A stretch of 40,630 nucleotides of DNA from Rickettsiales bacterium (GTDB lineage Bacteria; Pseudomonadota; Alphaproteobacteria; Rickettsiales; UBA1997), in assembly GCA_016778745.1 (NCBI GenBank), contig JADHOZ010000002.1:1-40630 (forward strand). Direction: 5' to 3'. The position numbers and the translations under genes were made by a program. Positions 1 through 23,952 of this stretch are shown here, piece by piece. Under the pieces are notes generated by a model that had not been told where the DNA came from, did no database searches, and was given only the letters and a program-made list of their open reading frames with translations. Position 1 is the first letter of the stretch. Every line of letters starts with the position of its first letter.

Positions 1-1458
1 GCTGGATTTAAAAATTCTTGTACCTTTAGCGCTATACTGGTCTTTAACAAATTTAAGATCTTTTAAAATCCCCTTGTTGCTCAGAACCGAGAATGCTCTT
101 ACAAGTTCCAAAAGCATTATTTCTCCGTTTCCCAAGGCTAATCCTGTTCCATATATTTGTGCCGGTTTATCCAAGCTTTCAAAGCCTAGCATATGTAATA
201 ATGATAAAAAATTTTCAACCCCAAGATCATCAATGGTTTTAATTGCTGGTACGTTTAGAGAATTTGCTAAGGCTTGACGCAAAGTAACGGGCCCATAATA
301 ATGGTGACTATAATTACTAAATTGATGTACGCCACTGCCCACTGCTTGGTCAATTCTAGAATCATCAATGATCGTTGCGGCGTTATATCCAGATTCAAGT
401 GCCATTGAGTATAAAAATGGTTTAAGGGTTGATCCGGCCTGTCTTTTAGATATAATTGAGTCGTAGAACTTTGTATCAGAATTATCGCTATTAGCTACCA
501 CCCAGGCCAAAACCTCATTACTAATATTTTCAACTACAATAAGACCGATGTTATTAACTTTATGGGTTGCCAATTTTTTCAAATGTCTGTGTGCTATTAG
601 GTCAGCTTCTTTTTGCAATTCCAAATCAAGGGTTGTTTGAATGGTGACTTTGTTTTCAGCAGAGAAATTATCAATGATATATTTTACAAAGTGATAAATC
701 TCATAATTTTTTTTGGCCTTATCAATTCGCAATGGTTGCTTTAAGATAGAAGCTATGTCTTTCTTGCTTATCACTTTGTTTTTGTGTAATTTTTGTGCTA
801 GGGCTAAGAAACTTTTATCTTGTAAGGAATTAGTTTTGTGCAAATCAAAGCGATTTGGAGATCTGACTATTAAAGCTAGAGCCAACATGCTTTTTTTGTT
901 CAGCAAGGCCACGTCGGAATTAAAATAATATCTTGCGCCAGCAACTATGCCTCTATTTCTTTTTGAATAAGGCACTTGATTTATATAAAATTCCAATATT
1001 TGTGATTTAGTAAATTTTTGCTCTAACATTACGGCCTCCCACCCTTCAAGCCACTTAGACCAGATATTCCTTTGTCTTGGGTGAAGCATTTGTACAACCT
1101 GCTGGGTAATAGTACTAGCTCCACGTATTTTTTTACCAACTAAATTACCCCATAAAGCATTAAGTCTAGCGAGCCAATCTATCCCATTATGCTTGAAGAA
1201 TCTTTTATCTTCAGCTTGTACGAAGGCCTGTTGTAAAAAATAAGGCACATCTTCTAATTTTATTAAGTCATGTAGATTCCAATCATTCTCATAAGTAATA
1301 TTGAGTGCAACATTATTGCGATCCAAAACCTGAGGTTTCTCAATTTTTAAATAGTTCGAAAATTCCTCACTAGGATCAGAAATTAAAAATAGGGTAGATA
1401 AGATTAGGGTAATTACGGCAAGGAAGATTATAAATATACCAAAACACAATTTATTCAT
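1..1458 (-). CDS. pbpC: Penicillin-binding protein 1C (GT51 transglycosylase + transpeptidase); N-terminal ~486 codons only, the gene runs off the window at position 1
   Basis: Missing from the ORF track because there is no stop codon in the window. My minus-strand translation from the ATG at 1458-1456 gives MNKLCFGIFIIFLAVITLILS (TM anchor). It then shows GT51 motifs (QAEDKRFFKHNGID, GASTITQQ) and, further on, transpeptidase SxxK (GSTLKPF) and SxN (NSLNVPA) motifs. The ATG overlaps the stop of the upstream A2M gene by 8 nt (1451-1458). Confidence 0.85.
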   Translation of the reverse strand, partial: MNKLCFGIFIIFLAVITLILSTLFLISDPSEEFSNYLKIEKPQVLDRNNVALNITYENDWNLHDLIKLEDVPYFLQQAFVQAEDKRFFKHNGIDWLARLNALWGNLVGKKIRGASTITQQVVQMLHPRQRNIWSKWLEGWEAVMLEQKFTKSQILEFYINQVPYSKRNRGIVAGARYYFNSDVALLNKKSMLALALIVRSPNRFDLHKTNSLQDKSFLALAQKLHKNKVISKKDIASILKQPLRIDKAKKNYEIYHFVKYIIDNFSAENKVTIQTTLDLELQKEADLIAHRHLKKLATHKVNNIGLIVVENISNEVLAWVVANSDNSDTKFYDSIISKRQAGSTLKPFLYSMALESGYNAATIIDDSRIDQAVGSGVHQFSNYSHHYYGPVTLRQALANSLNVPAIKTIDDLGVENFLSLLHMLGFESLDKPAQIYGTGLALGNGEIMLLELVRAFSVLSNKGILKDLKFVKDQYSAKGTRIFKSS

Positions 1459-4400
1459 CCGCGATTAGCAACTTGAAATCAAGGCCTTTTCCATAAATAT
1501 CGGGATTGTACATTTCTTGAGCGTGAACTGGCGGGGCCGAAAAGCTTCCGCTAGCAATTGCCTGAGCTATATAAGATAAATGGTAATTTCCGGCCATTAA
1601 ATAATCTGAATAAAACTGCACATTATCATGATTTAGCTCCTTATGATAAAATCCCCATCTATTAAAACCAAAGCTGTGCCAGTTGCTTTTTTGATGATAC
1701 CAAGAATTTTTTGTAATTAGTTTTTTCACCATTTCGGCATCATTTATAGAAGAGGTTGCTAAATTTCTATCAACAGGCTCAAGGCCACTAATTACAGGAT
1801 CATTGACAGCAACAAATTGACGCGCACTAGGAAGCGATAAATAAATATCGACCTTAACTAGGTCGCCCCTCTTTATTTTGCTGTTGTCTTTTAACAGTGC
1901 CCAATCGCCTCCTTTTTTAATACTAAATTCACGCCTAATATCAATCCCAGCATTTATTCGATCGGTTATTTTATCTTGGGAAGTATAAGACACTCTGGTG
2001 GTATAAAATAATCTTCCGTCGCCTTTTTTTAGAATAGTAATATTGGCATTTTTTCTAATATCGCCTGGATTGATCTTTTTATCAAAAATAAGAGGTTTAT
2101 CTTTATAAGAGGTCAAATTACCTTTACCAATATCATCATTATTAAACTTGACTGATAGGTTCATATTTGGCTTTTCCTGCTCATAAAGCTTAGAGTACTC
2201 TATTAAAGCATTAGAGCAGAACATATTTTCTTGTGTATTTTTGAAGTGATCCTTATTGCCTTTGCTAGCACTAACCATGCGCACAATTTTGAATGGAATA
2301 TCATTAAGCAATTCTTTATATTTCTTGTGTTTTGCCGCACTAACCAAGCTATCCAAAATAGCGCAGTTTGTTCGGGCTTGTGAGGATAAAATCCTTGTAT
2401 AAGCGGAGTCTAGTTCTTCGCTAAATGTAATCGTTTCAGCTGACTGATTTGAATAAGAAAGAATGTTATTAATAATATCTTTAATCCACTTCTCGTTCGG
2501 AGATACTATCAGCGCTGCTTGCAGGAAGTTAGCTTTACCAAATAAATCCATTTCGTCGAAATGTTCTTTGTGGTTTAATATAGCCTCTAGGCTAATCTTA
2601 TTGGTGCGCGATAAAGCATTTAAGGCCACGGCACGAACGGTATGGTCCATCGATCTTGTGTAATAATCTGGATCAATTTGATGATATAAAATCTTATCTA
2701 ACAGATATTGATCTAATTTTTCTTCCACTGCTTTATCAACCTCATATCCAGCTTGTGTAAGCCAGCTAAAAGCAAGAGAAGTATAAGCACTCAAATATGG
2801 ACTAACAAAATTATTTTCATTTCTAAAATACGATAGGCCGCCATTTGGGGCTTGGAATCTATAGGCTTGATCCAGAGTGTGTTGGGGTAGATTTTTAGAG
2901 GTCTCCCAGTCCAAATTCTTGGAAATATAGCTTTGCAAATTTTGATAATGCGAAGCCATAACAGCTTTGGATAGCCTTTGTTCCCAGCATTGATAAGGAT
3001 ATTTATTCATATATTTAAAAGAGCCATCAATATGGCCAATGATTGTAGGTGCTAAAGTAATATTCACGTCTCCGATATCGTCATAGATGTTGTTCGGGAG
3101 TTTTATTAATTCCGTCACTTTATCTTTGGTGGTAGAGCTATAATTGGCCGCAACTTCTAGTGAACGATTGCGTAAGATTTTAATTTCATGCGACAGTGAA
3201 TCTAGGGCTTTAGGGGTGGTTGCCTTGGCGGAAAATATAATTTTACCACCCTTCTTAGTGTTGATAGGAATAAATACTTTTTGTCTTTTAAAAGGTTCAA
3301 CTGTAATTCTTTTAACCACCTTTGGCAAAGATTGCTTTGAATTATCTTCATTAATAATATCGGCGTCAATCTCTAGCGTGACTTCTTGTATCGTTTTTTC
3401 TCTATTTAATATTACAAAACCAGCATCGAAATTATCTCCTTCGCGAATCTGGTTGGGCATCACTGTATTTATCTCTAGGGGCAGGATTGACTTGATGTCT
3501 TTCTGCGATAGGCCCAGTAGATCACCTTCGTTGGTCGCTAATATTAATATTTTCCAGCTTGTTAAATTGCTTGGTAAAGTAAAGTCAAATTTTGCATTTC
3601 CCTCGGGGTCGGTTATGATTGAGGGGTTAAAATAGGCAACATAGGCAAAATCTTTGCGATGATTTGCGTCATTTTTCTCAAAGCCAGATGCGAAAGCCCT
3701 ATTTACTCCGCCTCCGCCAGGGTTGGCACCTTTCTTCTCAATCTTTTGTCGTCCAATTAGTTTTTGAATTAAATTAAAGTTTGCTATATCTAGGTGACCA
3801 AGGTTATTAAAGCCTTTATGCACGTCGTAATAGGTTGACCCACCCTGGATCATATCAAAAACGGCTTTATCGATCACTACGGCCGTTAGCTCCATTTTGC
3901 CAGGGTTTTTTGTTTTACTGCTTGCTTTTAGATCAACAAAAACAGTTTGCTTGGGTTTGTAAATTTCCTTATCAGGCTTTATGTCTACTAAAATCTTTTT
4001 ATAAGGATCGTTCACATTAATTTTGACATATCCCATTTTGAAAGAAGGTTTGCCTAAATCCAACCCTTCATCTGAGAAGTCTTTTTTGCTTCTTTTTGAC
4101 ATCACCGTCACGGAAAGATAGAATCCAGGAAGGAAATCGGGCTCAACATCAAATTCAATTATTGGCATATTGCCATTAAGTTCTTGTACCCATTGCTTGA
4201 TTATTCCATATCTTTCAATTGTTACCAGAGCCTGAGAGTCGGGATATGGATTTTGAATCATGAATTTTGCTTTTTGTCCAACCAAATAATCTTGTGATTG
4301 AGGAATGACGGTAAGGCTATTGTCATTTTTTTGGTTCCAGTTTACCCAGTCATTCCCACTAACCCAAAGGTCAAGCTTGGTTTGATGGTCGTTACCATCA

Positions 4401-7400
4401 TTATCTTTCACTTTAGCGGTCAGGCGATATTGTCCAGATTTTTCGGGCTTAAATTTACAAGACAAAGCTTTTTCTTTTTTTGAAACGCCTTTGCACGTAA
4501 CAATATCTGTCCAAACTTTTTCGTAGCGGTTAATGAAGCTATTTCCAGAAGATTTGGCTTTTACCATCTCATTCTTCCCATATTGTACCGCGACTTCAGC
4601 TTTTGATCCAGACACTAAATATCCATTTTCATCGACAACAATATATTTAATATCTACATCTTTATTAGAGTTATAAAGCCATTTTGGTGATTTTAGGCCA
4701 ATGAATCTATTTACAGCAAAATAATTAGCTTTACTAGTAGTAGAAATATTCTTTCCTCTATCATCAAACACGCTTGATTCAACCAATAATTTTCCGTAAT
4801 AAATATCATTTTTATCAACAACAAAGCTATTATGTAATTCTCCTTTGGCATCCACCTTGTCGTGCTGAGAAAATATCACATCTTTGCGAGAATAATTTTT
4901 ATAACTATCAAACTTAAATCCAGCTGCTAGAGGATGTTCAGAGGAAAAACCTACTTCCTCAACCGTGGCGATAGTCCTAGCTGGGCTATCAGAGTAAGGC
5001 CCTCCCGCATGTAGCTTTGCAAAGCTGTCTACTTTTACAGTATCGCCTTGATAAAACCTATCGCCATTGAGGTTGTTGCTGACCTGAAAAGGTGCTGGCG
5101 TGAAATCGGATACTAAGAATTTAACAGGATACCAGAAATAGTTGGTAAAGTCTGATTTGAGCGATAGTTTATACCATCCGCTAGCAGCAGAATTTGCGAT
5201 ATTAAAGCTACCATCAAAAGTAGAAAAGTCTGATAAGGTGATATCATTTCTTTCATAAATGGTTTTGCCTAGAGGGTCGCTAACTTTTAGAGAATATTTC
5301 CCCCTTTGCGCTAAACTTAGTTTTTTATTTTCATTATTTCTTACATATATTTTATAGGAAACTTTATCTCCCTGTTTATAGATAGCTTGGGAAGTAATTC
5401 CCCAAGCTTTAATGTGACCATTATCATTAAAATTTCTTACCCCCACTTGATAACCAGAGACTCTTGAGGCGCTTACTTCAAAATCATGAGTAGCAGGTAA
5501 AATCGCTATCTCCTTATCTTTTTCTACCTTGACAAATAGGCGCTGCTTCGATCTCGACCATCGACTATAAGATACAAGGCCCTTAGGGTCAAACTTAGAA
5601 TGACCTTTCAATATAGCTAATCCATTTTCATCTGTTTTAGCTGAATCAATTTTTTCTTCTAAATTCATTATGTCGGCACCTAGATATAAACTCACTTTCG
5701 CATCCTTAACGCTTTTTCCATTAGATAAATTCGCAACCCAAATGACGCTATTAAAATGCCCAATTTTTGCTAGAATATTATATGGAGTTATCTGGGTTGT
5801 AAAATCGCCACAAGCGTCACCTTCACAAACTATTGGGTAAGTAAGGATTTTTCCGGAAACTATCCCTGATTCCCCCTCTAAAACATCTCTTATTCCCAAA
5901 GATATATTTTTATATTGATTATGCGCCATTGAAGGAGAAATATCATGGTATTTTACATCACTCAATCCGTTGGTGGCAAGGGCTCTATATTGTAGTTTAA
6001 TGCTATCAAAATTAACGGCCTCAATAGTATTGTCGGTGTTCATGTCTTTTTCCAGCACTACATCGCGATATTTTAAGTGAAAACTAGGATAAAAATTGCC
6101 AGTTTCCACAACAAAACTATAGCTTTTGTTAAGTGGGCGAGAAAAGAGATCCTTCAGAGCGTTTTCAGTTTTTTTTCCTTGTTGGTCAAATTCTTCAAAA
6201 TTGAGACTGGTTTCGTGTGTAGATTTTATAGCCTCATGTTTTTTGTAAAAAATTTGATCTTCATAAATTTTCTCTTCCCTTATTACAAATCCAAACAGGC
6301 TTTTAATCCAATCCCATATTCTAATAAAAATATTAGGTTTTTCTTTTTCAACTTCTACTTTTTCGATTCGCTCAATGGTAGAATCTTGATGCGTGGTGTC
6401 ATTTATTTTATCCAGCCTAAGCATATCTTTTTGTAATTCACTGTGGGGTATGGGGAGCGTTCCGTCTTGTAAAATTTTTACGAAGTAATGCGCTTGGGCT
6501 TGGAGCTTGATCGGCAATCTAACCCTGTATACTTTGGATCTGTCGTGTAATCTATGGTGGCTATTGGGGTCATAATAAGAATTGTTTTCCAATAACTCCG
6601 CTCTCTCGCCAGAAGAGTTGGTGACAACGATATTTTTATAAAGATCTTTTGTCAGTACTGGCGCATTGAACTCGAGGTATATAGAGCGATCTGGAGAGCA
6701 TTTTACGTTCTTTTTTGAGGCATTCATCTTAGCGATTACCGCCTCTATAGAGCCATCTTCTTTTCTGCGGTCAGAAGGAGTATAGCAGCTAACGTTGATT
6801 AATCTTGCAGAATCGTATGTTGCAAATGAAATTATTTTTTCGTCTTGTATAGATTTCTGATCTCCGTTGGGAGATCTAATACCGGGCTCGATATGCAAGG
6901 ACACATCGCTATTAGCTTTAAATTCTTTTAATGGACTGACGGTAAAGAAGTTTTGTTGCGATTTCAGAATTTTCGCCTCATATCTCGTCCCGTTAGATAA
7001 GAAGTAAAGATGTTTTTCCACGGATTCCTGAGAGACTTTTTGATTGAAAGTAACGCGTATTGACGGTAAAGTGGGGGTGTGCCATTCTTTTAAATATACG
7101 TAATGAAGAAGTTTTGGTCTTTGAGTAATAAAGCTATAATTTTGCTCCTCAAGCAATGCCGCCCCATCCTCTGCTTTGAGTTCTTTTCCGACATTAATTT
7201 GGTATTTAGTTGCTTTCTTTAGCTTATTTTCGTCGCTGAGTTGGCAGGCTAGAGCTTTTTTAGATATCCATCTCCATTTACATTCAACGGGCGGAGTAAT
7301 GCTGATAGGTATTTCCTCGGCCTCTCTACTCATTTTACCTAAGGAAACCATGTCTTTATTAAAGGTAAAACTTATCTGTCCTAAGGACGAAACATCGTCT

Positions 7401-7504
7401 CCCGCAGGAGAAATATTAACTATTTTTAATTCTTGAGTAGAGGCGCTAGAGGTGTCAATAAATAGCGCAAGAAATATGAGGATAAAAAATAGCTCTTTAA
7501 GCAC
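1451..7504 (-). CDS. yfhM: Bacterial alpha-2-macroglobulin family protein, thioester type (YfhM/ECAM-like), 2017 aa
   Basis: One uninterrupted 6 kb ORF with a GTG start at 7504. It has an N-terminal signal peptide (MLKELFFILIFLALFIDTSSAS) with no Cys lipobox. The thioester motif YPYQCWEQ is present (CWEQ encoded at 2978-2989). pbpC lies directly downstream, which is the canonical A2M-PBP1C pairing. Confidence 0.85.
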   Translation of the reverse strand: MLKELFFILIFLALFIDTSSASTQELKIVNISPAGDDVSSLGQISFTFNKDMVSLGKMSREAEEIPISITPPVECKWRWISKKALACQLSDENKLKKATKYQINVGKELKAEDGAALLEEQNYSFITQRPKLLHYVYLKEWHTPTLPSIRVTFNQKVSQESVEKHLYFLSNGTRYEAKILKSQQNFFTVSPLKEFKANSDVSLHIEPGIRSPNGDQKSIQDEKIISFATYDSARLINVSCYTPSDRRKEDGSIEAVIAKMNASKKNVKCSPDRSIYLEFNAPVLTKDLYKNIVVTNSSGERAELLENNSYYDPNSHHRLHDRSKVYRVRLPIKLQAQAHYFVKILQDGTLPIPHSELQKDMLRLDKINDTTHQDSTIERIEKVEVEKEKPNIFIRIWDWIKSLFGFVIREEKIYEDQIFYKKHEAIKSTHETSLNFEEFDQQGKKTENALKDLFSRPLNKSYSFVVETGNFYPSFHLKYRDVVLEKDMNTDNTIEAVNFDSIKLQYRALATNGLSDVKYHDISPSMAHNQYKNISLGIRDVLEGESGIVSGKILTYPIVCEGDACGDFTTQITPYNILAKIGHFNSVIWVANLSNGKSVKDAKVSLYLGADIMNLEEKIDSAKTDENGLAILKGHSKFDPKGLVSYSRWSRSKQRLFVKVEKDKEIAILPATHDFEVSASRVSGYQVGVRNFNDNGHIKAWGITSQAIYKQGDKVSYKIYVRNNENKKLSLAQRGKYSLKVSDPLGKTIYERNDITLSDFSTFDGSFNIANSAASGWYKLSLKSDFTNYFWYPVKFLVSDFTPAPFQVSNNLNGDRFYQGDTVKVDSFAKLHAGGPYSDSPARTIATVEEVGFSSEHPLAAGFKFDSYKNYSRKDVIFSQHDKVDAKGELHNSFVVDKNDIYYGKLLVESSVFDDRGKNISTTSKANYFAVNRFIGLKSPKWLYNSNKDVDIKYIVVDENGYLVSGSKAEVAVQYGKNEMVKAKSSGNSFINRYEKVWTDIVTCKGVSKKEKALSCKFKPEKSGQYRLTAKVKDNDGNDHQTKLDLWVSGNDWVNWNQKNDNSLTVIPQSQDYLVGQKAKFMIQNPYPDSQALVTIERYGIIKQWVQELNGNMPIIEFDVEPDFLPGFYLSVTVMSKRSKKDFSDEGLDLGKPSFKMGYVKINVNDPYKKILVDIKPDKEIYKPKQTVFVDLKASSKTKNPGKMELTAVVIDKAVFDMIQGGSTYYDVHKGFNNLGHLDIANFNLIQKLIGRQKIEKKGANPGGGGVNRAFASGFEKNDANHRKDFAYVAYFNPSIITDPEGNAKFDFTLPSNLTSWKILILATNEGDLLGLSQKDIKSILPLEINTVMPNQIREGDNFDAGFVILNREKTIQEVTLEIDADIINEDNSKQSLPKVVKRITVEPFKRQKVFIPINTKKGGKIIFSAKATTPKALDSLSHEIKILRNRSLEVAANYSSTTKDKVTELIKLPNNIYDDIGDVNITLAPTIIGHIDGSFKYMNKYPYQCWEQRLSKAVMASHYQNLQSYISKNLDWETSKNLPQHTLDQAYRFQAPNGGLSYFRNENNFVSPYLSAYTSLAFSWLTQAGYEVDKAVEEKLDQYLLDKILYHQIDPDYYTRSMDHTVRAVALNALSRTNKISLEAILNHKEHFDEMDLFGKANFLQAALIVSPNEKWIKDIINNILSYSNQSAETITFSEELDSAYTRILSSQARTNCAILDSLVSAAKHKKYKELLNDIPFKIVRMVSASKGNKDHFKNTQENMFCSNALIEYSKLYEQEKPNMNLSVKFNNDDIGKGNLTSYKDKPLIFDKKINPGDIRKNANITILKKGDGRLFYTTRVSYTSQDKITDRINAGIDIRREFSIKKGGDWALLKDNSKIKRGDLVKVDIYLSLPSARQFVAVNDPVISGLEPVDRNLATSSINDAEMVKKLITKNSWYHQKSNWHSFGFNRWGFYHKELNHDNVQFYSDYLMAGNYHLSYIAQAIASGSFSAPPVHAQEMYNPDIYGKGLDFKLLIADE

Positions 7505-9213: not shown

Positions 9214-11520
9214 ATGAATCTTTCCAAAAAAATTAAACAATTTGCAAATCAATTTTTATTGCCGGTAATTGTCGTCACCTTTCTTGCTGCAAGCACAAGT
9301 GCTTATGCTGCTGCCAATATTACCATTATCGGCAATGAAAGGGTCGATGAAGCAACCATTACATCATATATTAATGTTCAAGGAATAGTGAAAGGATCAA
9401 AATCGGCCATTCAAGATTCTCTCGAAAAGCTATATGCTTCTGAACTTTTTTTAGAGTCAAAAATATATCAAAAAAAAAGAGATTGGATTGTGGAGGTGAA
9501 AGAAAATCCAGTTGTTTTTGAGGTGAAGTTTGTTGGCAATAATAAGATAGACGATGATGCATTGAAAAATGAAGCCACGCTAAAAAAGCGATCAGTTTTT
9601 ACGAAATCTAAATTACAAAATGACATAAAAAGAATTAACGAAATTTATCTCAAGTCTGGCCGCTTCTTAACAAAAATAGATCCCAAAATAATTCAAAAAG
9701 AACGTAATCGTATTGAAGTAATCTTTGATATTAAAGAGGGTCCAAAAGCAAAAATTGACGATATTTACTTTGTTGGCAATGAAGCCTACTCAGACTCTAA
9801 ATTAAAAGAAGAAATTACCACGCAAGTATCAAAATGGTGGAAATTTCTTTCAAGCTTTGATGTTTATGATTCTGATCGTATTGAGTTTGACAAAGAAAAA
9901 CTTCGCCGCTTCTATGGTTCAAAAGGTTACGCAGATTTTTATGCAATTTCTGCGACTGCACAAATTACCCCAACCAAAGATCGTTTTTACATCACATTCT
10001 TACTAGAAGAGGGGATAAAATATGACATAGGAGATATAACAATCACTAATGATGTTGAGAAGTTTGATGAAGATGTTTTGCGCCAGCATATACTTATTAA
10101 AAAGGGCAAAACTTATAACTCAGATCTTATTGAAAAGACAGTTGAAAAAATGGTCAATCAAATGTCAAAACAATCCTTCGCATTTGCCCATATTGAGCCA
10201 GTATTAACCAGAAACCAAGAGCAAAAAATCATTGATGTCAATTTTGTCATTAAAGAAACGCCACCCATTTACATTAACGAAATTACAATTACAGGCAATA
10301 CAAGAACTATTGACAAGGTAGTGAGAAGAGAATTAAGGGTTAGAGAGGGGGATCCTTACAACATTACAAAGATTAATCGTTCAAAACAACGCTTAGAAAA
10401 TCTTGGATATTTTGAAAAAGTAGAATTTGAAACCAACAGAATTGATAATTCTGACAAGGTAAATCTGGCGGTAAAATTAAAAGAAAAAAAGACGGGCGAA
10501 TTAAGTCTGGGTGTTGGTTATTCAACAGTGGATCGTCTCACAACAAATGTTGGCATTAGGGAAAACAATCTTTTTGGCACGGGGCAAAAATTAGGATTTA
10601 GCGTGCAAAAGTCATTTGCCAGCTTTAGCGGAGAAGTCAATTATACAAGGCCATATTTTCTAGATAGAAATATTGATGTGGGTTTTGATATTTTTAAATA
10701 TGAATTAAGTAAAAGAAATACGCTAGTTTACGACCAAAATTCAGACGGGCTTACGGTGAGGGGAGGATATGCAATAACGGAATATTTGACTCATCAATTG
10801 CGATATTCTCTAAGTAGTCAAGAGGTAAGTAATGTTGATTCAGATGTTTCTATTGCAATTAGAAATTTAGAAGGAAGTTTCGTTAGCTCGGGAATCGGGC
10901 ATACATTATTATACGACAAAAGAAATAATAGCAGGCAACCAACATCGGGCTATTACTTATCGTTTAGCCAAGATTACACAGGCATTGGTGGCGACATTAA
11001 AACCATGAAATATACTGGATCAGCTGGATATTACATTCCAACGTTTAGCGAAGAGTTCATCTTAAAATTCCTTGCGCGCGGCGGTTTGATTGATGGGCTT
11101 GGTCAAGATGTTAGAAGTAATTACGGTTTTTATCTCGGAGGCAACACCTTTAGGGGCTTTAGATTCGCTGGTTTGGGGCCAAGATATGTAGAAAATGGCT
11201 CTGCCGATGGTGGAAGCGCTGCTGGTGGTACCACTTACTATGTTGGAACGGTAGAATTTATGTTCCCTTTGGGTCTTCCAAAAGAGCTGGGTATAAATGG
11301 CGTGTTATTCTCTGATAATGGGACATTAAAAGGAGTGGATCAGATAAATGTAGGTAGCTCACAAGTAGAAGATAGTGGATCTCTTAGATCAACTTACGGA
11401 TTTAGTTTAGTGTGGACGTCTCCAATGGGACCAATAAGGCTTGATTTTTCTAAGATTGCTAAAAGAGAAGACTATGACGAAACCCAGAATTTCCGCTTCA
11501 GTTTTGGAACGAATTTCTAA
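9214..11520 (+). CDS. bamA: Outer membrane protein assembly factor BamA (Omp85)
   Basis: 768 aa with a signal peptide (ASTSAYA/AA). Repeated POTRA-like units are present (V..V.F.GN.., I.F.I.EG..). A C-terminal beta-barrel ends in the aromatic FRFSFGTNF. Confidence 0.9.
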   Translation: MNLSKKIKQFANQFLLPVIVVTFLAASTSAYAAANITIIGNERVDEATITSYINVQGIVKGSKSAIQDSLEKLYASELFLESKIYQKKRDWIVEVKENPVVFEVKFVGNNKIDDDALKNEATLKKRSVFTKSKLQNDIKRINEIYLKSGRFLTKIDPKIIQKERNRIEVIFDIKEGPKAKIDDIYFVGNEAYSDSKLKEEITTQVSKWWKFLSSFDVYDSDRIEFDKEKLRRFYGSKGYADFYAISATAQITPTKDRFYITFLLEEGIKYDIGDITITNDVEKFDEDVLRQHILIKKGKTYNSDLIEKTVEKMVNQMSKQSFAFAHIEPVLTRNQEQKIIDVNFVIKETPPIYINEITITGNTRTIDKVVRRELRVREGDPYNITKINRSKQRLENLGYFEKVEFETNRIDNSDKVNLAVKLKEKKTGELSLGVGYSTVDRLTTNVGIRENNLFGTGQKLGFSVQKSFASFSGEVNYTRPYFLDRNIDVGFDIFKYELSKRNTLVYDQNSDGLTVRGGYAITEYLTHQLRYSLSSQEVSNVDSDVSIAIRNLEGSFVSSGIGHTLLYDKRNNSRQPTSGYYLSFSQDYTGIGGDIKTMKYTGSAGYYIPTFSEEFILKFLARGGLIDGLGQDVRSNYGFYLGGNTFRGFRFAGLGPRYVENGSADGGSAAGGTTYYVGTVEFMFPLGLPKELGINGVLFSDNGTLKGVDQINVGSSQVEDSGSLRSTYGFSLVWTSPMGPIRLDFSKIAKREDYDETQNFRFSFGTNF

Positions 11521-12574: not shown

Positions 12575-13477
12575 TTAGATATAAATAGTGCTTCCAACAG
12601 CATCAACACCACCAATTTGATATCTTCCGCCCCTAGCAATTAAGTTGGTTAAATTATCGGCAAAAATATTAAAGGAAGTAGAATTGTGATAAGATGATTT
12701 GTGATCCCCAAATAAATCAAAGGCAATGCTGCAGTTGAAGTTGTCTGTCAATAAATCATGCAGCTTTTGTGCTTTTGCTAGCTCCTCTGAGATGACAGGA
12801 GAATTATAGTTAGAACTAAAATTGTTGATATTTCCTTCTAAATCATCATTTTTTAAAATGAGGTCTTCTATTGCTTGCGGCTTATTGCCAAATATTTCTC
12901 TAATTTTTGAAATATTCTTATTTAAAATAGCTGTTGCTAGATCTTCTTTTAGACCTTCTTTAAGCTGAACTTCTTCTAAGAATTTATTTAATAAATCGGG
13001 TAGTGATATTTCAATTAAAACATTTTCTTTTCCAATACGAGACACAGCTTCAAGAGTAGTTTTAATGACCTCAATATCGGATTCTTCTTTACTGCAGCCA
13101 ATAATTTCAATACCAATTTGAGTTTGTTGTCTTTGGCCGTTAAAGTTCAAAGCTTTATTGCTTAAAACGCTGCCACAGTAGCATAATTTTATCGGTAAAT
13201 CATAACTTTTTAGTCTGCTTTTTAGCAGTCTTTCAATTTGCAAGGTAATGTCATTTCTAAATACTAAATTTTTACCACTTTTGGCATCAAGGGCGCAAAA
13301 CGCATCATCATAAAGGGTGGATTTATCCAAAAATTCAACTAAGGAGGTTTCGATCATTCTAAAATTTGATGCTAAAAAATGCTCCAAAACCAAATTTTTT
13401 TCACGAAATTTATTTTCAGCTTCTTCAAAAATAAGGTCACAAAAACCATCTGGTAGTAACTTAATATTCTTAGTCAT
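12575..13477 (-). CDS. hisZ: HisZ-like class II aaRS paralog (ATP phosphoribosyltransferase regulatory subunit family), short 300-aa form
   Basis: The N-terminus LPDGFCDLIFEEA matches the HisZ LPxGxxD pattern. Other matching blocks are FRNDITLQIERLL, PIKLCYCGSVL, QTQIGIEIIG and the C-terminal ARGGRYQ. No hisG is present in the window. The gene overlaps the UDG gene by 8 nt. Confidence 0.55.
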   Translation of the reverse strand: MTKNIKLLPDGFCDLIFEEAENKFREKNLVLEHFLASNFRMIETSLVEFLDKSTLYDDAFCALDAKSGKNLVFRNDITLQIERLLKSRLKSYDLPIKLCYCGSVLSNKALNFNGQRQQTQIGIEIIGCSKEESDIEVIKTTLEAVSRIGKENVLIEISLPDLLNKFLEEVQLKEGLKEDLATAILNKNISKIREIFGNKPQAIEDLILKNDDLEGNINNFSSNYNSPVISEELAKAQKLHDLLTDNFNCSIAFDLFGDHKSSYHNSTSFNIFADNLTNLIARGGRYQIGGVDAVGSTIYI

Positions 13478-14816: not shown

Positions 14817-15909
14817 CTATTTTTTAATTAAATTACTTTTAATAAAATCTTCTATTTTTCCATCTAAAACCGCATCAACATTGCCAGTTTCAAAATTACT
14901 TCGCAAGTCTTTTACCAGCTGGTAAGGATGCAAAACATAAGATCTAATTTGATGACCCCAACTATTATCGGTTTTGGCACTTTCTTGATTTTCTTGCTCT
15001 TGTTTTTGCTTTTGCAATTCCAGCTCATAAAGTCTTGACTTTAGCATCTTCATGCATTCGGACTTGTTTCGAATTTGTGATCTATCAGACTGACATTGCA
15101 CCACAATATTTGTTGGTAAATGTGTAATTCTAACGGCAGAATCTGTTTTATTAACGTGCTGCCCACCAGCGCCAGAAGCACGATAAGTATCAATTCTTAA
15201 ATCCTTATCTTCAATGGCAATGTCAATGGAGTCATCAATTTCAGGATAAACCCAAACAGAAGCAAAGCTAGTTTGCCTTTTGCCGTTAGCGTTAAAGGGA
15301 GAGATTCGAACAAGCCTATGAACACCACTTTCGGTTTTAAGCCAACCATAAGCAAATTTCCCAGAAACTTTTAGCGTAGCCGATCTAATGCCAGCCTCAA
15401 TATCTTCTAACATACTCACGACTTCGACGTTGAAATCTTTTTGATTACAAAATCTTTCATACATCCTAAATAGCATTAAAGCGAAATCGCAAGAATCAGT
15501 GCCTCCGGCGCCAGCATTAAAATCAATAAAGCAATCATTTAAATCTGCTTCGCCGTCAAACAATGATTCAATTTCCAAAATATCACATTTGCTTGTTAGA
15601 TCTTTCAAAGATTTTTCCACTTCGTTTATGCTATCTTCGTCTTTTTCTTCTTTTGCCATTTTATAGAACTCGACATTGTCGGCTAACAAATTTTCTATTT
15701 CTTTAACCCCATCGGTTTTATCCTGAATTGCTGATTTTTCTTTTAAGATCTTTTGCGCCTTGTCGTTGTCGTCCCACAAGTTAGGATCCTGCGACAATTT
15801 GTCTAGTTCATTTAGCCTCTTCGATAAAGCCTCGACGTCAAAGACACCCCCTAATCACATTGAGAGAATTTTTAATTTTACTAATAAAGTTTTCTATTTC
15901 CAAAGACAT
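14817..15909 (-). CDS. prfB: Peptide chain release factor 2, requires a +1 programmed frameshift (363 aa when joined)
   Basis: The track ORF 14817-15797 carries the SPF and GGQ motifs (RISPFNANGKR, GAGGQHVN) but lacks the N-terminus. Frame 0 starts at the ATG at 15909 and encodes MSLEIENFISKIKNSLNVIRGCL, then reaches an in-frame TGA. A +1 shift continues as DVEALSKRLNELDKLSQDPN and joins the track ORF exactly. Confidence 0.9.
15837..15852 (-). other. prfB +1 ribosomal frameshift cassette (internal SD + CTT TGA C)
   Basis: The minus strand reads AGGGGG TGT CTT TGA C. The E. coli prfB site as I recall it is AGGGGG TAT CTT TGA C. The SD-like AGGGGG is at 15852-15847, CTT at 15843-15841 and TGA at 15840-15838. 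Confidence 0.85.
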
Positions 15910-22162: not shown

Positions 22163-23152
22163 ATGTCTATAACTTACAAAAAATCTGGTGTTGATATCGC
22201 CGCTGGCAATAATCTAGTTGAAAAAATTAAGCCTTATGCAAAATCTACCGCCACTGCAGGCACTAGCTCCGACCTTGGTGGTTTCGGCGCGCTTTTTGAC
22301 TTAAAAAAATCTGGCTTCAAGGATCCAATTCTAGTTTCGGCAACCGATGGTGTTGGTACAAAATTAAAATTGGCTTTCGAGCTGAATATTCATGACACAA
22401 TAGGTATTGATCTTGTGGCAATGTCAGTAAATGATCTGGTTGTTCAAGGGGCAAGGCCATTATTTTTTTTAGATTATTACTCAACTTCAAAATTAGATGT
22501 TGATGTCGCTAGTGACGTGGTGAAAGGAATTGCATTGGGCTGTAAACAAGCGGGATGCGCATTAATTGGTGGTGAAACTGCCGAAATGCCAGGCATTTAT
22601 TCGGGTGGTGAATACGATTTGGCTGGCTTTGCGGTTGGTGCCGTTGAAAGAGATGACATTCTACCAAAACAAACCTTAAAAGGCGATGTTTTAATTGGTC
22701 TAAAATCAAATGGCCTTCATTCAAACGGCTTTTCTCTGGCTAGGTATATATTAAAAGAAAAAAACATTGAGCTATCTCAAAAATTATCGTCAAAAACAAT
22801 CGGTGAGTTATTATTAGAGCCAACCAGAATCTACGTAAAATCTTGTTTAGAAGCTGTAAAAACCGGCAAAGTAAAAGCAATGGCTCATATAACCGGTGGT
22901 GGTTTAATTGAAAATTTACCAAGAGTTTTATCTAAAGAAGTGGAAGCAAAAATAGATTATCATTCATGGCAGCCAAATGAAATTTTTGCATTTCTACAAA
23001 AAGAGGGAGGCGTTGCTGATGAAGAAATGTATCGTACTTTTAATTGCGGTATCGGTATGGTTTTGGTGGCTGACAAAAATGACGTAGATGAAGTAATACA
23101 TAACCTAAAAAATAGTGGTGAAGAAGCAATAGCAATAGGAGAATTAGCATGA
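22163..23152 (+). CDS. purM: Phosphoribosylformylglycinamidine cyclo-ligase (AIR synthetase)
   Basis: 329 aa with the blocks YKKSGVDI, GGFGALFDL, DGVGTK, DLVAMSVNDL and GGETAEMPG. Confidence 0.9.
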   Translation: MSITYKKSGVDIAAGNNLVEKIKPYAKSTATAGTSSDLGGFGALFDLKKSGFKDPILVSATDGVGTKLKLAFELNIHDTIGIDLVAMSVNDLVVQGARPLFFLDYYSTSKLDVDVASDVVKGIALGCKQAGCALIGGETAEMPGIYSGGEYDLAGFAVGAVERDDILPKQTLKGDVLIGLKSNGLHSNGFSLARYILKEKNIELSQKLSSKTIGELLLEPTRIYVKSCLEAVKTGKVKAMAHITGGGLIENLPRVLSKEVEAKIDYHSWQPNEIFAFLQKEGGVADEEMYRTFNCGIGMVLVADKNDVDEVIHNLKNSGEEAIAIGELA

Positions 23153-23952
23153 TAGATAGAAAAATATCCGTACATTTACAAGATTACCCAGACGTTTCTT
23201 ATTTTGATGATGAAACAGAACTAGTCTCAAACATGGATCTTGTTAGAAATATATGTTCAACAGCCCTTTCAATCAGAGATAATAAAAATTTAAGAGTAAG
23301 ACTACCCTTAGCATCTCTAAAAATAATTGGCCAAAATGCATCAAGAATTTTGCAATTTAAAGATATTATTGCTGATGAAGTAAATGTTAAATCAGTAAAA
23401 ACCGAAGAAGATTTTAGTGAATTAGCTGAGTTAAAGTTGCAAGTAAACTTTAAAAAAATTGGTGCCAAACATGGTCCGAAAATAAAAGATATTATTGCAG
23501 CAACAAAACAAGGAAATTGGCAAAAAAATGATCAAGGTCAAATTGAAGTGTGCGATGTTACGTTAGAAAAAGACGAATTTGAAATAAAATTAGAGCCAAA
23601 AAATCAAGGCGAAGAAAAGCACGCCTCATTAGCACTACCAACAAATGATTATTTGGTTCGCTTAGATATTGAGGTCACAAAAGAATTAGAAGATGAGGGA
23701 ATCGCTAGAGATATTATCCGCGCAATTCAGCAAAATCGAAAAGCAGCAGATTTAGATATTTCTGATAAAATCAATATTACTTTATTTAGCGAAGAAAACA
23801 GAGCAATAGAAGTGGCCAAATCATTTGAAAGCTACATTAAAGAACAAGTCCTTGCTAACAATATTGAATATGCAAGCAAATCTCCAGAAAAGACAGATAA
23901 ATATTTTGAAAATAAACTAGAAAATTCTGATCTAATAGTAGTAATAAACTAG
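23149..23952 (+). CDS. Stand-alone C-terminal (anticodon/tRNA-binding) module of a type-2 isoleucyl-tRNA synthetase, 267 aa; either a split gene or an intact remnant
   Basis: It begins a few residues before the type-2 IleRS landmark SVHLxxxP (ISVHLQDYP). It continues through VRLPLASL, DEVNVKSV, NFKKIGAKHG, LDIEVTKELEDEGIARDIIRAIQQNRKAADLDISDKI. No catalytic body (HIGH/KMSKS) lies upstream, where purM sits instead. The start overlaps the purM stop as ATGA. Confidence 0.7.
   Translation: MIDRKISVHLQDYPDVSYFDDETELVSNMDLVRNICSTALSIRDNKNLRVRLPLASLKIIGQNASRILQFKDIIADEVNVKSVKTEEDFSELAELKLQVNFKKIGAKHGPKIKDIIAATKQGNWQKNDQGQIEVCDVTLEKDEFEIKLEPKNQGEEKHASLALPTNDYLVRLDIEVTKELEDEGIARDIIRAIQQNRKAADLDISDKINITLFSEENRAIEVAKSFESYIKEQVLANNIEYASKSPEKTDKYFENKLENSDLIVVIN

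What the first reader, a model, noticed from the sequence alone, without database searches (positions are those of the whole stretch)
23149..23952. Orphan, intact IleRS C-terminal tRNA-binding module expressed as its own cistron behind purM
The 267-aa ORF matches only the last quarter of a type-2 (eukaryote-like) isoleucyl-tRNA synthetase. It starts six residues before the SVHL landmark and keeps the conserved C-terminal blocks (VRLPL, EVNVK, NFKKIG, EGIARDIIRAIQQNRK, DKI). There is no Rossmann catalytic body upstream, because purM ends there. Two points argue against neutral debris. An 804-nt open frame is unlikely to survive by chance in such an AT-rich genome, where stop codons arise easily. 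The start codon also overlaps the purM stop as ATGA, a typical translational-coupling junction. Possible explanations are a split ileS whose body is encoded elsewhere, a free-standing tRNA-Ile binding or chaperone protein, or a very recent rearrangement remnant.
Basis: partly seen in the sequence, partly recalled or inferred. Interest (0 to 1): 0.65.

Follow-up and report, generated by a model that had tools for sequence, protein, structure and literature searches.

The report
Separately encoded tail of isoleucyl-tRNA synthetase
This gene is a conserved, selected, stand-alone copy of the anticodon-reading end of isoleucyl-tRNA synthetase, and it most likely works as the second subunit of an enzyme whose catalytic part is encoded elsewhere, which would be a naturally split form of an essential translation enzyme not described before for isoleucine.

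Summary
ORF 23149-23952 (267 aa) overlaps the purM stop as ATGA and matches only residues about 765-1017 of type-2 IleRS.

It is not debris. The purM-tail pair recurs in at least 14 species-level genomes and many metagenome contigs, down to 47% identity. dN/dS is 0.02-0.10, the same range as purM. The residues that read anticodon base G34 (Q194, R197, K198, L202) are invariant or nearly so.

Related Alphaproteobacteria carry "body-only" IleRS2 genes of 797-890 aa (two of 978-1001 aa carry an extra insert). They keep intact catalytic and editing motifs and stop exactly where this ORF starts.

- One MAG (GCA_020630095.1) holds a body and a tail on separate contigs.
- A monophyletic body-only clade accounts for 11 of the 12 body-only genes found among 89 evaluable alpha-type IleRS2 loci sampled from metagenomes. 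It matches the tail clade in GC, divergence and deep branching.

The best reading is a two-gene, non-covalently assembled IleRS, with the tail translationally coupled to purM (confidence about 0.8).

Not shown: the body of this particular genome. I could not place a body and a purM-linked tail in one assembly, so a full-length IleRS elsewhere is not excluded. Fission at this linker appears to have happened several times. No paper describing a natural split IleRS was found.

The parts
22163..23152 (+). purM (AIR synthase), the upstream cistron. Its last codons supply the ribosome-binding site for the tail gene, and its stop codon overlaps the tail gene's start codon.
   Evidence: Pfam AIRS plus AIRS_C. 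It is 70-86% identical to the purM that sits next to the tail in relatives.
23137..23141 (+). Shine-Dalgarno-like AGGAG inside the end of purM (codons for ..IGE..), 7 nt before the tail start codon.
   Evidence: Read from the sequence. The same ...attGGAGaattagcATGA junction is present in L015-L021, L030, L162 and L168.
23149..23152 (+). ATGA overlap: the tail start codon ATG shares two bases with the purM stop codon TGA. This is a translational-coupling junction.
   Evidence: It is conserved or replaced by a 0-2 nt gap in most relatives.
23149..23952 (+). Stand-alone IleRS2 C-terminal module, the proposed beta-like subunit (267 aa). It holds the linker with SVHL, the last helix of the helical anticodon-binding domain, ARD2 with its INS insertion, and ARD3.
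   Evidence: Family and sequence matches. AlphaFold model with mean pLDDT 87. Foldseek finds significant full-length matches only to the C-terminal tRNA-binding region of IleRS2 (8c8v, 8wnd). dN/dS is 0.02-0.10.
23149..23214 (+). N-terminal segment (residues 1-22) with invariant S7 and H9 and near-invariant L10 and P14. It is unstructured in the isolated model and is the proposed docking strand onto the body.
   Evidence: pLDDT is 55-80 and the segment is coil in the model. Invariant columns are listed. The docking role is inferred.
23215..23283 (+). Helix of residues 23-45, the last helix of the class Ia helical anticodon-binding domain (ARD1). The preceding helices lie in the body protein.
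   Evidence: Pfam Anticodon_1 positions 93-144 match residues 2-54. Body-only proteins stop at Anticodon_1 positions 89-92. The helix is seen in the model.
23359..23892 (+). DUF5915 region (residues 71-248), covering ARD2 with INS and ARD3. It includes F101, which aligns with PmIleRS2 F865, a D-loop contact.
   Evidence: the alignment, and residue roles from bioRxiv 10.64898/2026.02.03.703510.
23728..23754 (+). Codons for Q194..L202 (QQNRKAADL). Q194, R197, K198 and L202 align with PmIleRS2 Q961, R964, K965 and L969, the pocket that reads anticodon base G34.
   Evidence: Alignment. Q194 and R197 are invariant, and K198 and L202 at least 90% conserved, over 101 stand-alone and full-length sequences. 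The R964A mutant is inactive in PmIleRS2.

Best explanation
The ORF encodes the small subunit of a naturally split type-2 isoleucyl-tRNA synthetase.

The large subunit is a body of about 800-890 aa holding the Rossmann catalytic domain, the CP1 editing domain and the first helices of the anticodon-binding bundle. It would be encoded at an unlinked locus outside the window.

The tail is translated from the purM transcript. A GGAG inside the last purM codons and the ATGA stop/start overlap couple its translation to purM.

The two polypeptides would assemble non-covalently. The tail's conserved N-terminal SVHL segment and its first helix would complete the helical anticodon-binding domain of the body. 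The tail would then supply ARD2/INS, which holds the tRNA D-loop, and ARD3, whose Q194/R197/K198/L202 pocket reads anticodon base G34. The body reads A35/U36 and does activation, transfer and editing.

Shown here:
- The tail is conserved and under purifying selection.
- It has the IleRS2 C-terminal fold and the G34 pocket.
- Body-only IleRS2 genes exist that end at exactly the complementary position.
- A body and a tail occur together in one MAG.

Inferred:
- That this genome has such a body.
- That the two proteins physically associate.
- That activity depends on both.
For: 1. The tail is functional and old. The synteny AI-2E/DUF2066/purM/tail is found in 14 GTDB species representatives, with the tail 56-68% identical and purM 70-73%. 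It is also found in closer contigs and in a 47%-identical relative. Tail dN/dS is 0.02-0.10 at unsaturated dS, against 0.045-0.055 for purM.

2. The tRNA-reading residues are kept. Q194 and R197 are invariant, and K198, L202 and F101 are at least 90% conserved. The equivalent R964A mutation abolishes PmIleRS2 activity.

3. The ends are exactly complementary. The tail starts at Anticodon_1 position 93 and MupB position 765. Body-only proteins end at Anticodon_1 positions 89-92 and MupB 764-766, 0-12 residues after the body's last conserved motif (...EEI[YW]xGL, or ...EFVWxxL in the metagenome clade), which directly precedes SVHL in full-length enzymes.

4. GCA_020630095.1 carries a body-only gene (P0313, 822 aa, contig 1) and a stand-alone tail (P0125, 257 aa, starting MVNSVHL, contig 3). 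The two loci have the same GC, 0.374 and 0.376.

5. An unbiased pattern scan of metagenome contigs found 12 body-only genes among 89 evaluable loci. Eleven of them share the ...PFT[STC]E[FYR][VIL]W.. ending, and the seven complete genes form a clade in 60 of 60 NJ bootstraps. That clade has intact HYGH, KLSKR and editing motifs and dN/dS of 0.07-0.11 for divergent pairs. Its GC (0.30-0.40), its internal divergence (73-90% identity) and its deep branch (at most 67% identical to any full-length body) mirror the tail clade.

6. The split falls inside a helical domain. The tail's first 22 residues are conserved but unstructured when modelled alone, as expected for a docking segment.

7. There are no intein or other joining domains.
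Against: The body of the window's own genome was not seen. The window has none, and I could not place a body-only gene and a purM-linked tail in the same assembly, contig or sample set.

The one direct co-occurrence is in a MAG, so binning error is possible. That MAG's tail is not purM-linked and does not group with the window's clade in the tail tree.

A full-length IleRS, type 1 or type 2, elsewhere in these genomes was not excluded.

No physical or enzymatic evidence exists. The trees are NJ only, and support for a single large stand-alone tail clade is weak (26 of 60 bootstraps).
Confidence: 0.8

Rival explanations
1. The tail is a free-standing tRNA-Ile binding protein, or has some other new function, and does not work with an IleRS body. 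The genome would have a complete IleRS (type 1 or full-length type 2) elsewhere, and the tail would survive as a co-opted module, for example a tRNA chaperone, a sequestering factor or a partner of another enzyme.
For: The fragment folds confidently on its own (pLDDT 87). It keeps its tRNA-contact residues. The body of this genome was never observed, and no assembly-level link was obtained. Free-standing tRNA-binding domains derived from synthetases are known (own knowledge: Trbp111, Arc1p).
Against: The cut lies inside the helical anticodon-binding domain, so the tail carries an orphan helix. Its N-terminal segment is conserved but unstructured alone, which makes sense only with a partner.

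Body-only IleRS2 genes with exactly complementary ends exist, are under purifying selection, and lack the G34 pocket that PmIleRS2 needs for activity. One MAG has both halves.

Foldseek finds no relation to known stand-alone tRNA-binding folds.
Confidence: 0.12
2. The split is more than a tolerated accident. The separately made anticodon-reading subunit would serve as a regulatory handle, with IleRS activity titrated by the supply of tail protein, which is tied to purM translation.
For: The purM-tail coupling junction is conserved over deep divergence. Fission at the same linker recurs in several lineages.
Against: In several relatives the tight junction is lost. L001 has a Bro-N gene inserted between purM and the tail, and L010-L012 and L014 have an intergenic gap. 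In GCA_020630095.1 the tail is not next to purM at all. Recurrent fission is equally explained by a permissive surface linker, which also tolerates 20-45 aa insertions in full-length relatives. No expression data exist.
Confidence: 0.06
3. The ORF is a neutral remnant of a recent rearrangement, or an assembly or binning artefact.
For: None beyond the absence of the body from the window.
Against: The same gene pair occurs in dozens of independent assemblies from NCBI, ENA, JGI and Logan. Identity ranges from 47% to 87%, and dN/dS is 0.02-0.10.
Confidence: 0.01

Closest known systems
Aquifex aeolicus heterodimeric (alpha-beta) leucyl-tRNA synthetase
   Same: It is a class Ia synthetase encoded by two separate genes whose products assemble non-covalently. 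The small subunit carries tRNA-binding parts (PMC2377443, citing Xu et al. 2002).
   Different: It is a different enzyme, LeuRS. Its split point differs: from my own knowledge it lies within the catalytic/leucine-specific region, so the beta subunit carries KMSKS. Here the whole catalytic core stays in the body and the cut is inside the helical anticodon-binding domain. The Aquifex complex has been shown biochemically, and this one has not.
Full-length type-2 IleRS (Priestia megaterium IleRS2, PDB 8c8v/8c9d; MupA/MupB; yeast IleRS 8wnd)
   Same: The tail has the same C-terminal architecture (end of ARD1, ARD2 with INS, ARD3), the same fold, and the same G34-pocket residues.
   Different: Those enzymes are single polypeptides of 1000-1100 aa. 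Here the last 260 residues or so form their own protein with their own start codon behind purM.
Bacterial split pyrrolysyl-tRNA synthetase (PylSn + PylSc)
   Same: From my own knowledge, with the topic covered in PMC11467909 (listed): a tRNA-binding domain is encoded as a separate small protein that acts in trans with the catalytic protein.
   Different: It is a class II enzyme. The detached module is N-terminal and the fold is unrelated. The two genes usually sit in one pyl cluster, whereas here the halves are unlinked.
Laboratory fragment complementation of E. coli IleRS (Shiba and Schimmel 1992, 'Functional assembly of a randomly cleaved protein')
   Same: From my own knowledge, not retrieved here: IleRS cut at many internal sites reassembles into active enzyme in vivo. 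This shows that non-covalent assembly of IleRS pieces is feasible.
   Different: Those were engineered cuts in a type-1 enzyme. They are not natural, conserved gene arrangements.
Free-standing synthetase-derived tRNA-binding proteins (Trbp111, Arc1p/EMAP-II-like domains)
   Same: They are small proteins related to synthetase appended domains that bind tRNA on their own (own knowledge).
   Different: They are OB-fold proteins unrelated to DUF5915/ARD domains. Foldseek shows no similarity. They are complete domains, whereas this tail begins in the middle of a helical domain.

Membership tests
Type-2 IleRS C-terminal tRNA-binding region (Pfam DUF5915 / ARD2-INS-ARD3) | Significant sequence match to the family profile above the curated cut-off. 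| tested here: met
   PF19302 scores 109 bits against a cut-off of 27, E 2.5e-31. MupB positions 765-1017 match. PmIleRS2 matches with E 4e-25.
Type-2 IleRS C-terminal tRNA-binding region (Pfam DUF5915 / ARD2-INS-ARD3) | Same three-dimensional fold as solved IleRS2 C-termini. | tested here: met
   The AlphaFold model has pLDDT 87. The best Foldseek hits are 8c9d, 8c8v and 8wnd, with E 1e-13 to 4e-19 and TM 0.62-0.70 normalised by query length.
Type-2 IleRS C-terminal tRNA-binding region (Pfam DUF5915 / ARD2-INS-ARD3) | Conserved pocket that reads anticodon base G34 (PmIleRS2 Q961, R964, K965, L969). | tested here: met
   Q194, R197, K198 and L202 align to these residues. They are invariant or at least 90% conserved in 101 sequences.
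Canonical IleRS (single-chain enzyme) | The C-terminal region is covalently continuous with the catalytic, editing and ARD1 body. | tested here: not met
   purM ends at the tail's start codon, and no IleRS body lies in the window.
Naturally split, heterodimeric class Ia synthetase (Aquifex LeuRS type) | Two genes that together cover the full-length enzyme without gap or overlap. | tested here: inconclusive
   This is met in relatives. Body-only genes end at Anticodon_1 positions 89-92 and MupB 764-766, and the tail starts at Anticodon_1 93 and MupB 765. Both halves occur in GCA_020630095.1. The body of the window's own genome was not seen.
Naturally split, heterodimeric class Ia synthetase (Aquifex LeuRS type) | Both halves are maintained by purifying selection with functional motifs intact. 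| tested here: met
   Tail dN/dS is 0.02-0.10. Body-only clade dN/dS is 0.07-0.11 for divergent pairs, with HYGH, KLSKR, WTTTPWT and GTGxVH present.
Naturally split, heterodimeric class Ia synthetase (Aquifex LeuRS type) | The subunits form a physical complex, and aminoacylation needs both. | not testable with these tools
   No multimer prediction or biochemistry was available. The dependence is inferred from the R964A result in PmIleRS2.
Split-intein (protein trans-splicing) gene pairs | An N-intein at the end of the first half, and a C-intein followed by a nucleophile at the start of the second half. | tested here: not met
   The tail starts M-IDRKI-SVHL, and bodies end 0-12 residues after their last conserved motif. 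Pfam finds no intein (Hint) domains in either half.
Stand-alone OB-fold tRNA-binding proteins (Trbp111/CsaA/Arc1p type) | OB-fold tRNA-binding domain. | tested here: not met
   There is no such Pfam hit and no such structural match. Significant full-length structural hits are to IleRS only, with short-segment matches to IARS1 UNE-I and ValRS C-terminal domains.

The most novel reading that the evidence does not exclude
Across a whole freshwater Rickettsiales-affiliated lineage (UBA1997-like), the essential IleRS would be an obligate two-gene heterodimer. The anticodon-reading subunit would be made from the purM message, so the cell would set its Ile-tRNA charging capacity through the supply of a detachable tRNA-recognition subunit. 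On this reading, the repeated independent fission of alphaproteobacterial IleRS2 at the same linker reflects selection for that modularity and not mere tolerance.
Probability: 0.12. Interest if true: 0.8.

Novelty: new variant of a known kind. Interest (0 to 1): 0.6.

Why it matters
If the two-gene reading holds, this would, as far as I could find, be the first natural heterodimeric IleRS.

- It cuts a class Ia synthetase inside its anticodon-binding domain, so that G34 is read by one polypeptide and A35/U36 by another. That gives a natural system for asking how anticodon recognition is communicated to the active site.
- It bears on current work on C-terminal remodelling of IleRS (bioRxiv 10.64898/2026.02.03.703510).
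- It matters for annotation. The tails are labelled 'hypothetical' or 'DUF5915', and one body fragment is labelled 'class I tRNA ligase family protein, partial'. Completeness and pseudogene calls in these genomes would therefore be wrong.
- It adds a well-populated case, possibly recurrent, to the short list of split synthetases used in arguments about modular enzyme evolution.

Tried and rejected
1. The 768-aa ORF at 9214-11520 looked like a possible body. It is BamA.

2. Protein searches with a related full-length body and with a profile of two body-only proteins listed only the best 120 hits. These included 9 body-only proteins, but none from the window's clade. P0313 and P0291 turned out to have no close relatives.

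3. Matching 'longest contig' lengths between the tail hits and the body hits gave no shared contig.

4. I tried to place a body-only gene and a purM-linked tail in one assembly or sample by looking up P0429, P0435, P0457 and P0502.

5. A PBP gene next to the body in L102/L119 resembles the gene at the window's left end, which suggested the body might lie just outside the window. I rejected this: identity is only 30-37%, and the neighbours differ (alpha-2-macroglobulin in the window, AmiC-like in L102).

6. The roughly 100 representatives of about 260 aa first looked like a huge stand-alone family. Many are fragments from contigs of about 1 kb; one shares a cluster with a 1336-aa enzyme. Only about 35-40 begin M-x(0-9)-S[VI]H and count as genuine.

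7. A single origin for all the splits is rejected. Body-only proteins are scattered among full-length relatives, up to 83% identical to one, and were never monophyletic (0 of 60 bootstraps).

8. Searches for the accessions GCA_002335845, DDCV01 and GCA_020630095 in papers, and for the two GCA accessions in the supplement of the UBA1997 paper, found nothing.

9. Rfam, tRNA, promoter and terminator scans around the locus added nothing specific.
Full report
**Observation.** The ORF at 23149-23952 (+) is real. It is 267 aa, starts with ATG and ends with TAG. The upstream gene is purM (Pfam AIRS plus AIRS_C). Its TGA stop at 23150-23152 overlaps the ATG at 23149-23151, giving ATGA. An AGGAG at 23137-23141 lies 7 nt upstream of that ATG.

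The protein matches only the C-terminal quarter of type-2 IleRS:
- Pfam DUF5915 covers residues 71-248 (E 2.5e-31), and positions 93-144 of 148 of Anticodon_1 cover residues 2-54.
- NCBIfam MupB aligns at positions 765-1017 of 1033.
- Priestia megaterium IleRS2 aligns at residues 770-1006 (E 4e-25).

There is no IleRS body in the 40.6-kb window. The one ORF of about the right size is BamA.

**It is a maintained gene, not debris.** A protein search returned 557 hits. The best 120 are all 266-278 aa apart from two longer gene calls (300 and 356 aa), and are 59-87% identical over 90-100% of the query.

Contigs carrying them show the same neighbourhood: AI-2E transporter, DUF2066, purM, tail, and often prfA and metG. 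A scan of one genome per GTDB species found 14 species-level MAGs with this arrangement. They are labelled Rickettsiales bacterium, Alphaproteobacteria bacterium, and in one case 'Rickettsiales bacterium UBA1997'. Six further hits were ordinary full-length IleRS2.

Across those 14 genomes the tail is 56-68% identical to the window's copy. For comparison, purM is 70-73%, metG 66-71%, prfA 78-81%, AI-2E 37-49% and DUF2066 27-35%. A relative only 47% identical (P0123) still sits behind purM with a 4-nt overlap.

For pairs with unsaturated dS (0.07-0.75), dN/dS of the tail is 0.02-0.10. purM gives 0.045-0.055. The junction ...attGGAGaattagcATGA is conserved in the window, L015-L021, L030, L162 and L168. 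Other relatives have a 0-2 nt spacer, and a few have an intergenic gap or an inserted gene.

The lineage appears to be the freshwater Rickettsiales family UBA1997 or close to it. That family has been described as epibionts of cryptophyte algae (bioRxiv 10.1101/2023.01.31.526412).

**Structure.** An AlphaFold model built on a 101-sequence alignment has mean pLDDT 87. Residues 1-22 are coil with lower confidence. Residues 23-45 form a long helix. Alpha/beta domains follow.

Foldseek against the PDB finds significant matches over most of the model only to the C-terminal tRNA-binding region of IleRS2, from P. megaterium (8c8v, 8c9d) and yeast in complex with tRNA (8wnd). A few short-segment hits go to IARS1 UNE-I and ValRS C-terminal domains.

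A recent study of PmIleRS2 assigns the residue roles:
- Recognition of anticodon base G34 to ARD3 residues Q961, R964, K965 and L969. The R964A mutant is inactive and cannot complement.
- Recognition of A35/U36 to ARD1 residues N647, F651, S713 and R721.
- D-loop contact to INS residues K862 and F865.

In the alignment these map to Q194, R197, K198, L202 and F101 of the window protein. Q194 and R197 are invariant across stand-alone and full-length sequences. K198, L202 and F101 are at least 90% conserved.

S7 and H9 of the SVHL segment are also invariant, although that segment is unstructured in the isolated model. Conservation of a segment that does not fold on its own is what a docking segment would show.

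**Where is the body?** I searched with the body of the nearest full-length relative (P0147). Nine of the 120 listed proteins lack DUF5915: P0291, P0293, P0296, P0313, P0322, P0338, P0343, P0344 and P0349. They are 797-866 aa, or 978-1001 aa with a DUF559 insert. Six are on contigs of 15 kb to 2.1 Mb, so those six are not truncated by contig ends.

All nine end 0-6 residues after ...EEI[YW]xGL. In full-length enzymes that motif directly precedes SVHL. In profile coordinates, bodies stop at Anticodon_1 positions 89-92 and MupB 764-766, while the tail starts at Anticodon_1 93 and MupB 765. The two kinds of protein therefore fit end to end.

A direct co-occurrence was found. P0313 (body, 822 aa) lies on JAHDCD010000001 and P0125 (tail, 257 aa, starting MVNSVHL) lies on JAHDCD010000003. 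Both contigs belong to assembly GCA_020630095.1. The two loci have GC of 0.374 and 0.376.

**A body-only clade that fits the tail clade.** I scanned public metagenome contigs for the alpha-type IleRS2 motif CWRTDTPLIY. In 89 of them the 3' end of the gene lies inside the locus, and 12 of those 89 are body-only.

Eleven of the twelve share the ending ...APLLPFT[STC]E[FYR][VIL]W.. followed by 2-15 variable residues and a stop. Most of them also share GWDTHGLP and a Cys/His-rich insertion just before the HIGH motif.

The seven complete genes (823-890 aa) have these properties:
- They form a clade in 60 of 60 NJ bootstraps.
- They keep the HYGH, KLSKR and editing motifs and have dN/dS of 0.07-0.11 for divergent pairs.
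- They show conserved synteny ppdK-glyS-hom-body in the two contexts looked up.
- Their GC is 0.30-0.40, against 0.31-0.42 for tail loci.
- They branch deeply, at most 67% identical on conserved columns to any full-length body.

Among full-length enzymes, a tail identity of 40-45% goes with a body identity of about 65%, and a tail identity of 55-70% goes with 76-79%. The window's tails are 37-48% identical (typically about 40%) to full-length tails and 56-87% identical among themselves. The body-only clade is 66-67% identical to its closest full-length bodies and 73-90% within itself. The two groups therefore mirror each other in divergence, composition and abundance, and apparently in habitat. 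One metagenome (Ga0214923) holds both a purM-linked tail and such a body.

**Limits.** I could not place a body-only gene and a purM-linked tail on one contig, in one assembly or in one sample set. The look-ups for P0429, P0435, P0457 and P0502 gave no overlap, and all the capped searches are spent. The pairing for the window's own lineage is therefore an inference, and a full-length IleRS elsewhere in these genomes is not excluded. The one direct co-occurrence is in a MAG.

**Mechanism proposed.**
- The tail is translated by coupling to purM (junction shown; coupling inferred).
- It associates non-covalently with the body. Its SVHL segment and helix 23-45 complete the helical anticodon-binding domain (inferred).
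- ARD3 reads G34 and INS contacts the D-loop (residues shown conserved; roles taken from PmIleRS2).
- The body reads A35/U36 and carries out catalysis and editing.

A body without ARD3 should be nearly inactive, by analogy with R964A, which would make the tail essential. No intein-like sequences are present, so protein splicing is not involved.

**Origin.** Body-only proteins are scattered among full-length relatives. P0293 is 83% identical to full-length P0320, and P0349 is 78% identical to P0311, yet body-only proteins are only 62-73% identical to one another, apart from the closely related pair P0343/P0344 (90%). They were never monophyletic (0 of 60 bootstraps). P0125 falls outside the purM-linked tail clade. 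This points to several independent fissions at the same place.

That place is a permissive linker. Full-length relatives carry 20-45 aa insertions on either side of SVHL (P0147, P0175, P0192). The same genes also tolerate in-frame DUF559 and GNAT domains elsewhere.

**Comparison with what is known.** The nearest analogue is the alpha-beta LeuRS of Aquifex aeolicus. Other split synthetases include bacterial PylSn/PylSc (own knowledge). Engineered IleRS fragments are also known to reassemble (Shiba and Schimmel 1992, own knowledge).

Full-text searches found no report of a natural split IleRS. The 2026 survey of 96,219 IleRS sequences discusses loss of INS and the exchange of ARD3 for a zinc-binding domain, but a search of its text found no mention of gene fission. 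Where the source databases name these proteins, the tails are called hypothetical, DUF5915 or 'isoleucyl-tRNA synthetase'. The only NCBI name seen for a body is 'class I tRNA ligase family protein, partial', given to one fragment.

**Verdict.** The remnant reading is refuted. The split-enzyme reading is the best supported, at about 0.8. It is a new variant of a known kind (a naturally split synthetase), of moderate to high interest to people who study synthetases and genome reduction.

Noticed in passing
window 15838-15860 (- strand): This is the classical prfB programmed +1 frameshift site: AGGGGG-TGT-CTT-TGA-C. It sits between a short upstream ORF that starts ATGTCTTTGGAA... and the main RF2 frame (14817-15797, with PCRF and RF-1 domains).
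   Followed up: partly
window 1-1449 (-) and 1451-7504 (-): A 2017-aa bacterial alpha-2-macroglobulin (MG2, bait region, A2M and MG10 domains) is followed by a class A penicillin-binding protein that runs off the window's start. This looks like the yfhM-pbpC type pair, which is notable in a genome of only about 1 Mb.
   Followed up: partly
P0147, P0272, P0273, P0283, P0320, P0349 (DUF559); P0192, P0351-P0355, P0373 (GNAT): Many alphaproteobacterial IleRS2 proteins carry whole extra domains inserted in frame inside the enzyme, either a Vsr-like DUF559 endonuclease or a GNAT acetyltransferase. NCBIfam already has a model for the GNAT form (NF040702). P0175 and P0233 also carry low-complexity Pro/Gly-rich inserts.
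   Followed up: no
L037, L060, L082, L102, L109, L122 (body residues about 40-80): The body-only clade has a specific insertion of about 25-30 aa just before the HIGH motif, rich in Cys and His (...SPVVEPCALKDHANCRH...). It could bind a metal. L052 and L156 lack it. The clade also has GWDTHGLP where relatives have GWDCHGLP.
   Followed up: no
L001 5149-5994: In one relative (ENA 954-kb contig) a Bro-N domain gene sits between purM and the tail, and an IS1595 transposase lies at the locus edge. So the tight coupling to purM can be broken without loss of the tail.
   Followed up: no
L033 4909-8947: In GCA_020630095.1 the stand-alone tail lies about 1 kb downstream of a phage-type gene cluster (S78 protease, major capsid, head-tail connector, tail completion gp17), separated from it by an lptF/G gene. 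The cluster looks like an RcGTA-like gene transfer agent.
   Followed up: no
L007 8495-8788: A 97-aa GIY-YIG nuclease-domain ORF lies 25 nt after the stop of the body-only ileS in GCA_020630095.1. It could be a trace of the event that broke the gene.
   Followed up: no
representatives (e.g. P0148, P0150, P0177): Many proteins of about 260 aa that look like stand-alone tails are gene fragments from contigs of about 1 kb. P0148 shares a 90% cluster with a 1336-aa enzyme. Several of these contigs begin close to SVHL, which may mean that repeats or insertions at this linker break assemblies.
   Followed up: partly
window 12575-13477 (-): A 300-aa protein matches only the HisRS catalytic-core family (tRNA-synt_His). 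It is probably HisZ, the regulatory subunit of ATP phosphoribosyltransferase, and so a second synthetase-derived stand-alone protein in the same window.
   Followed up: no
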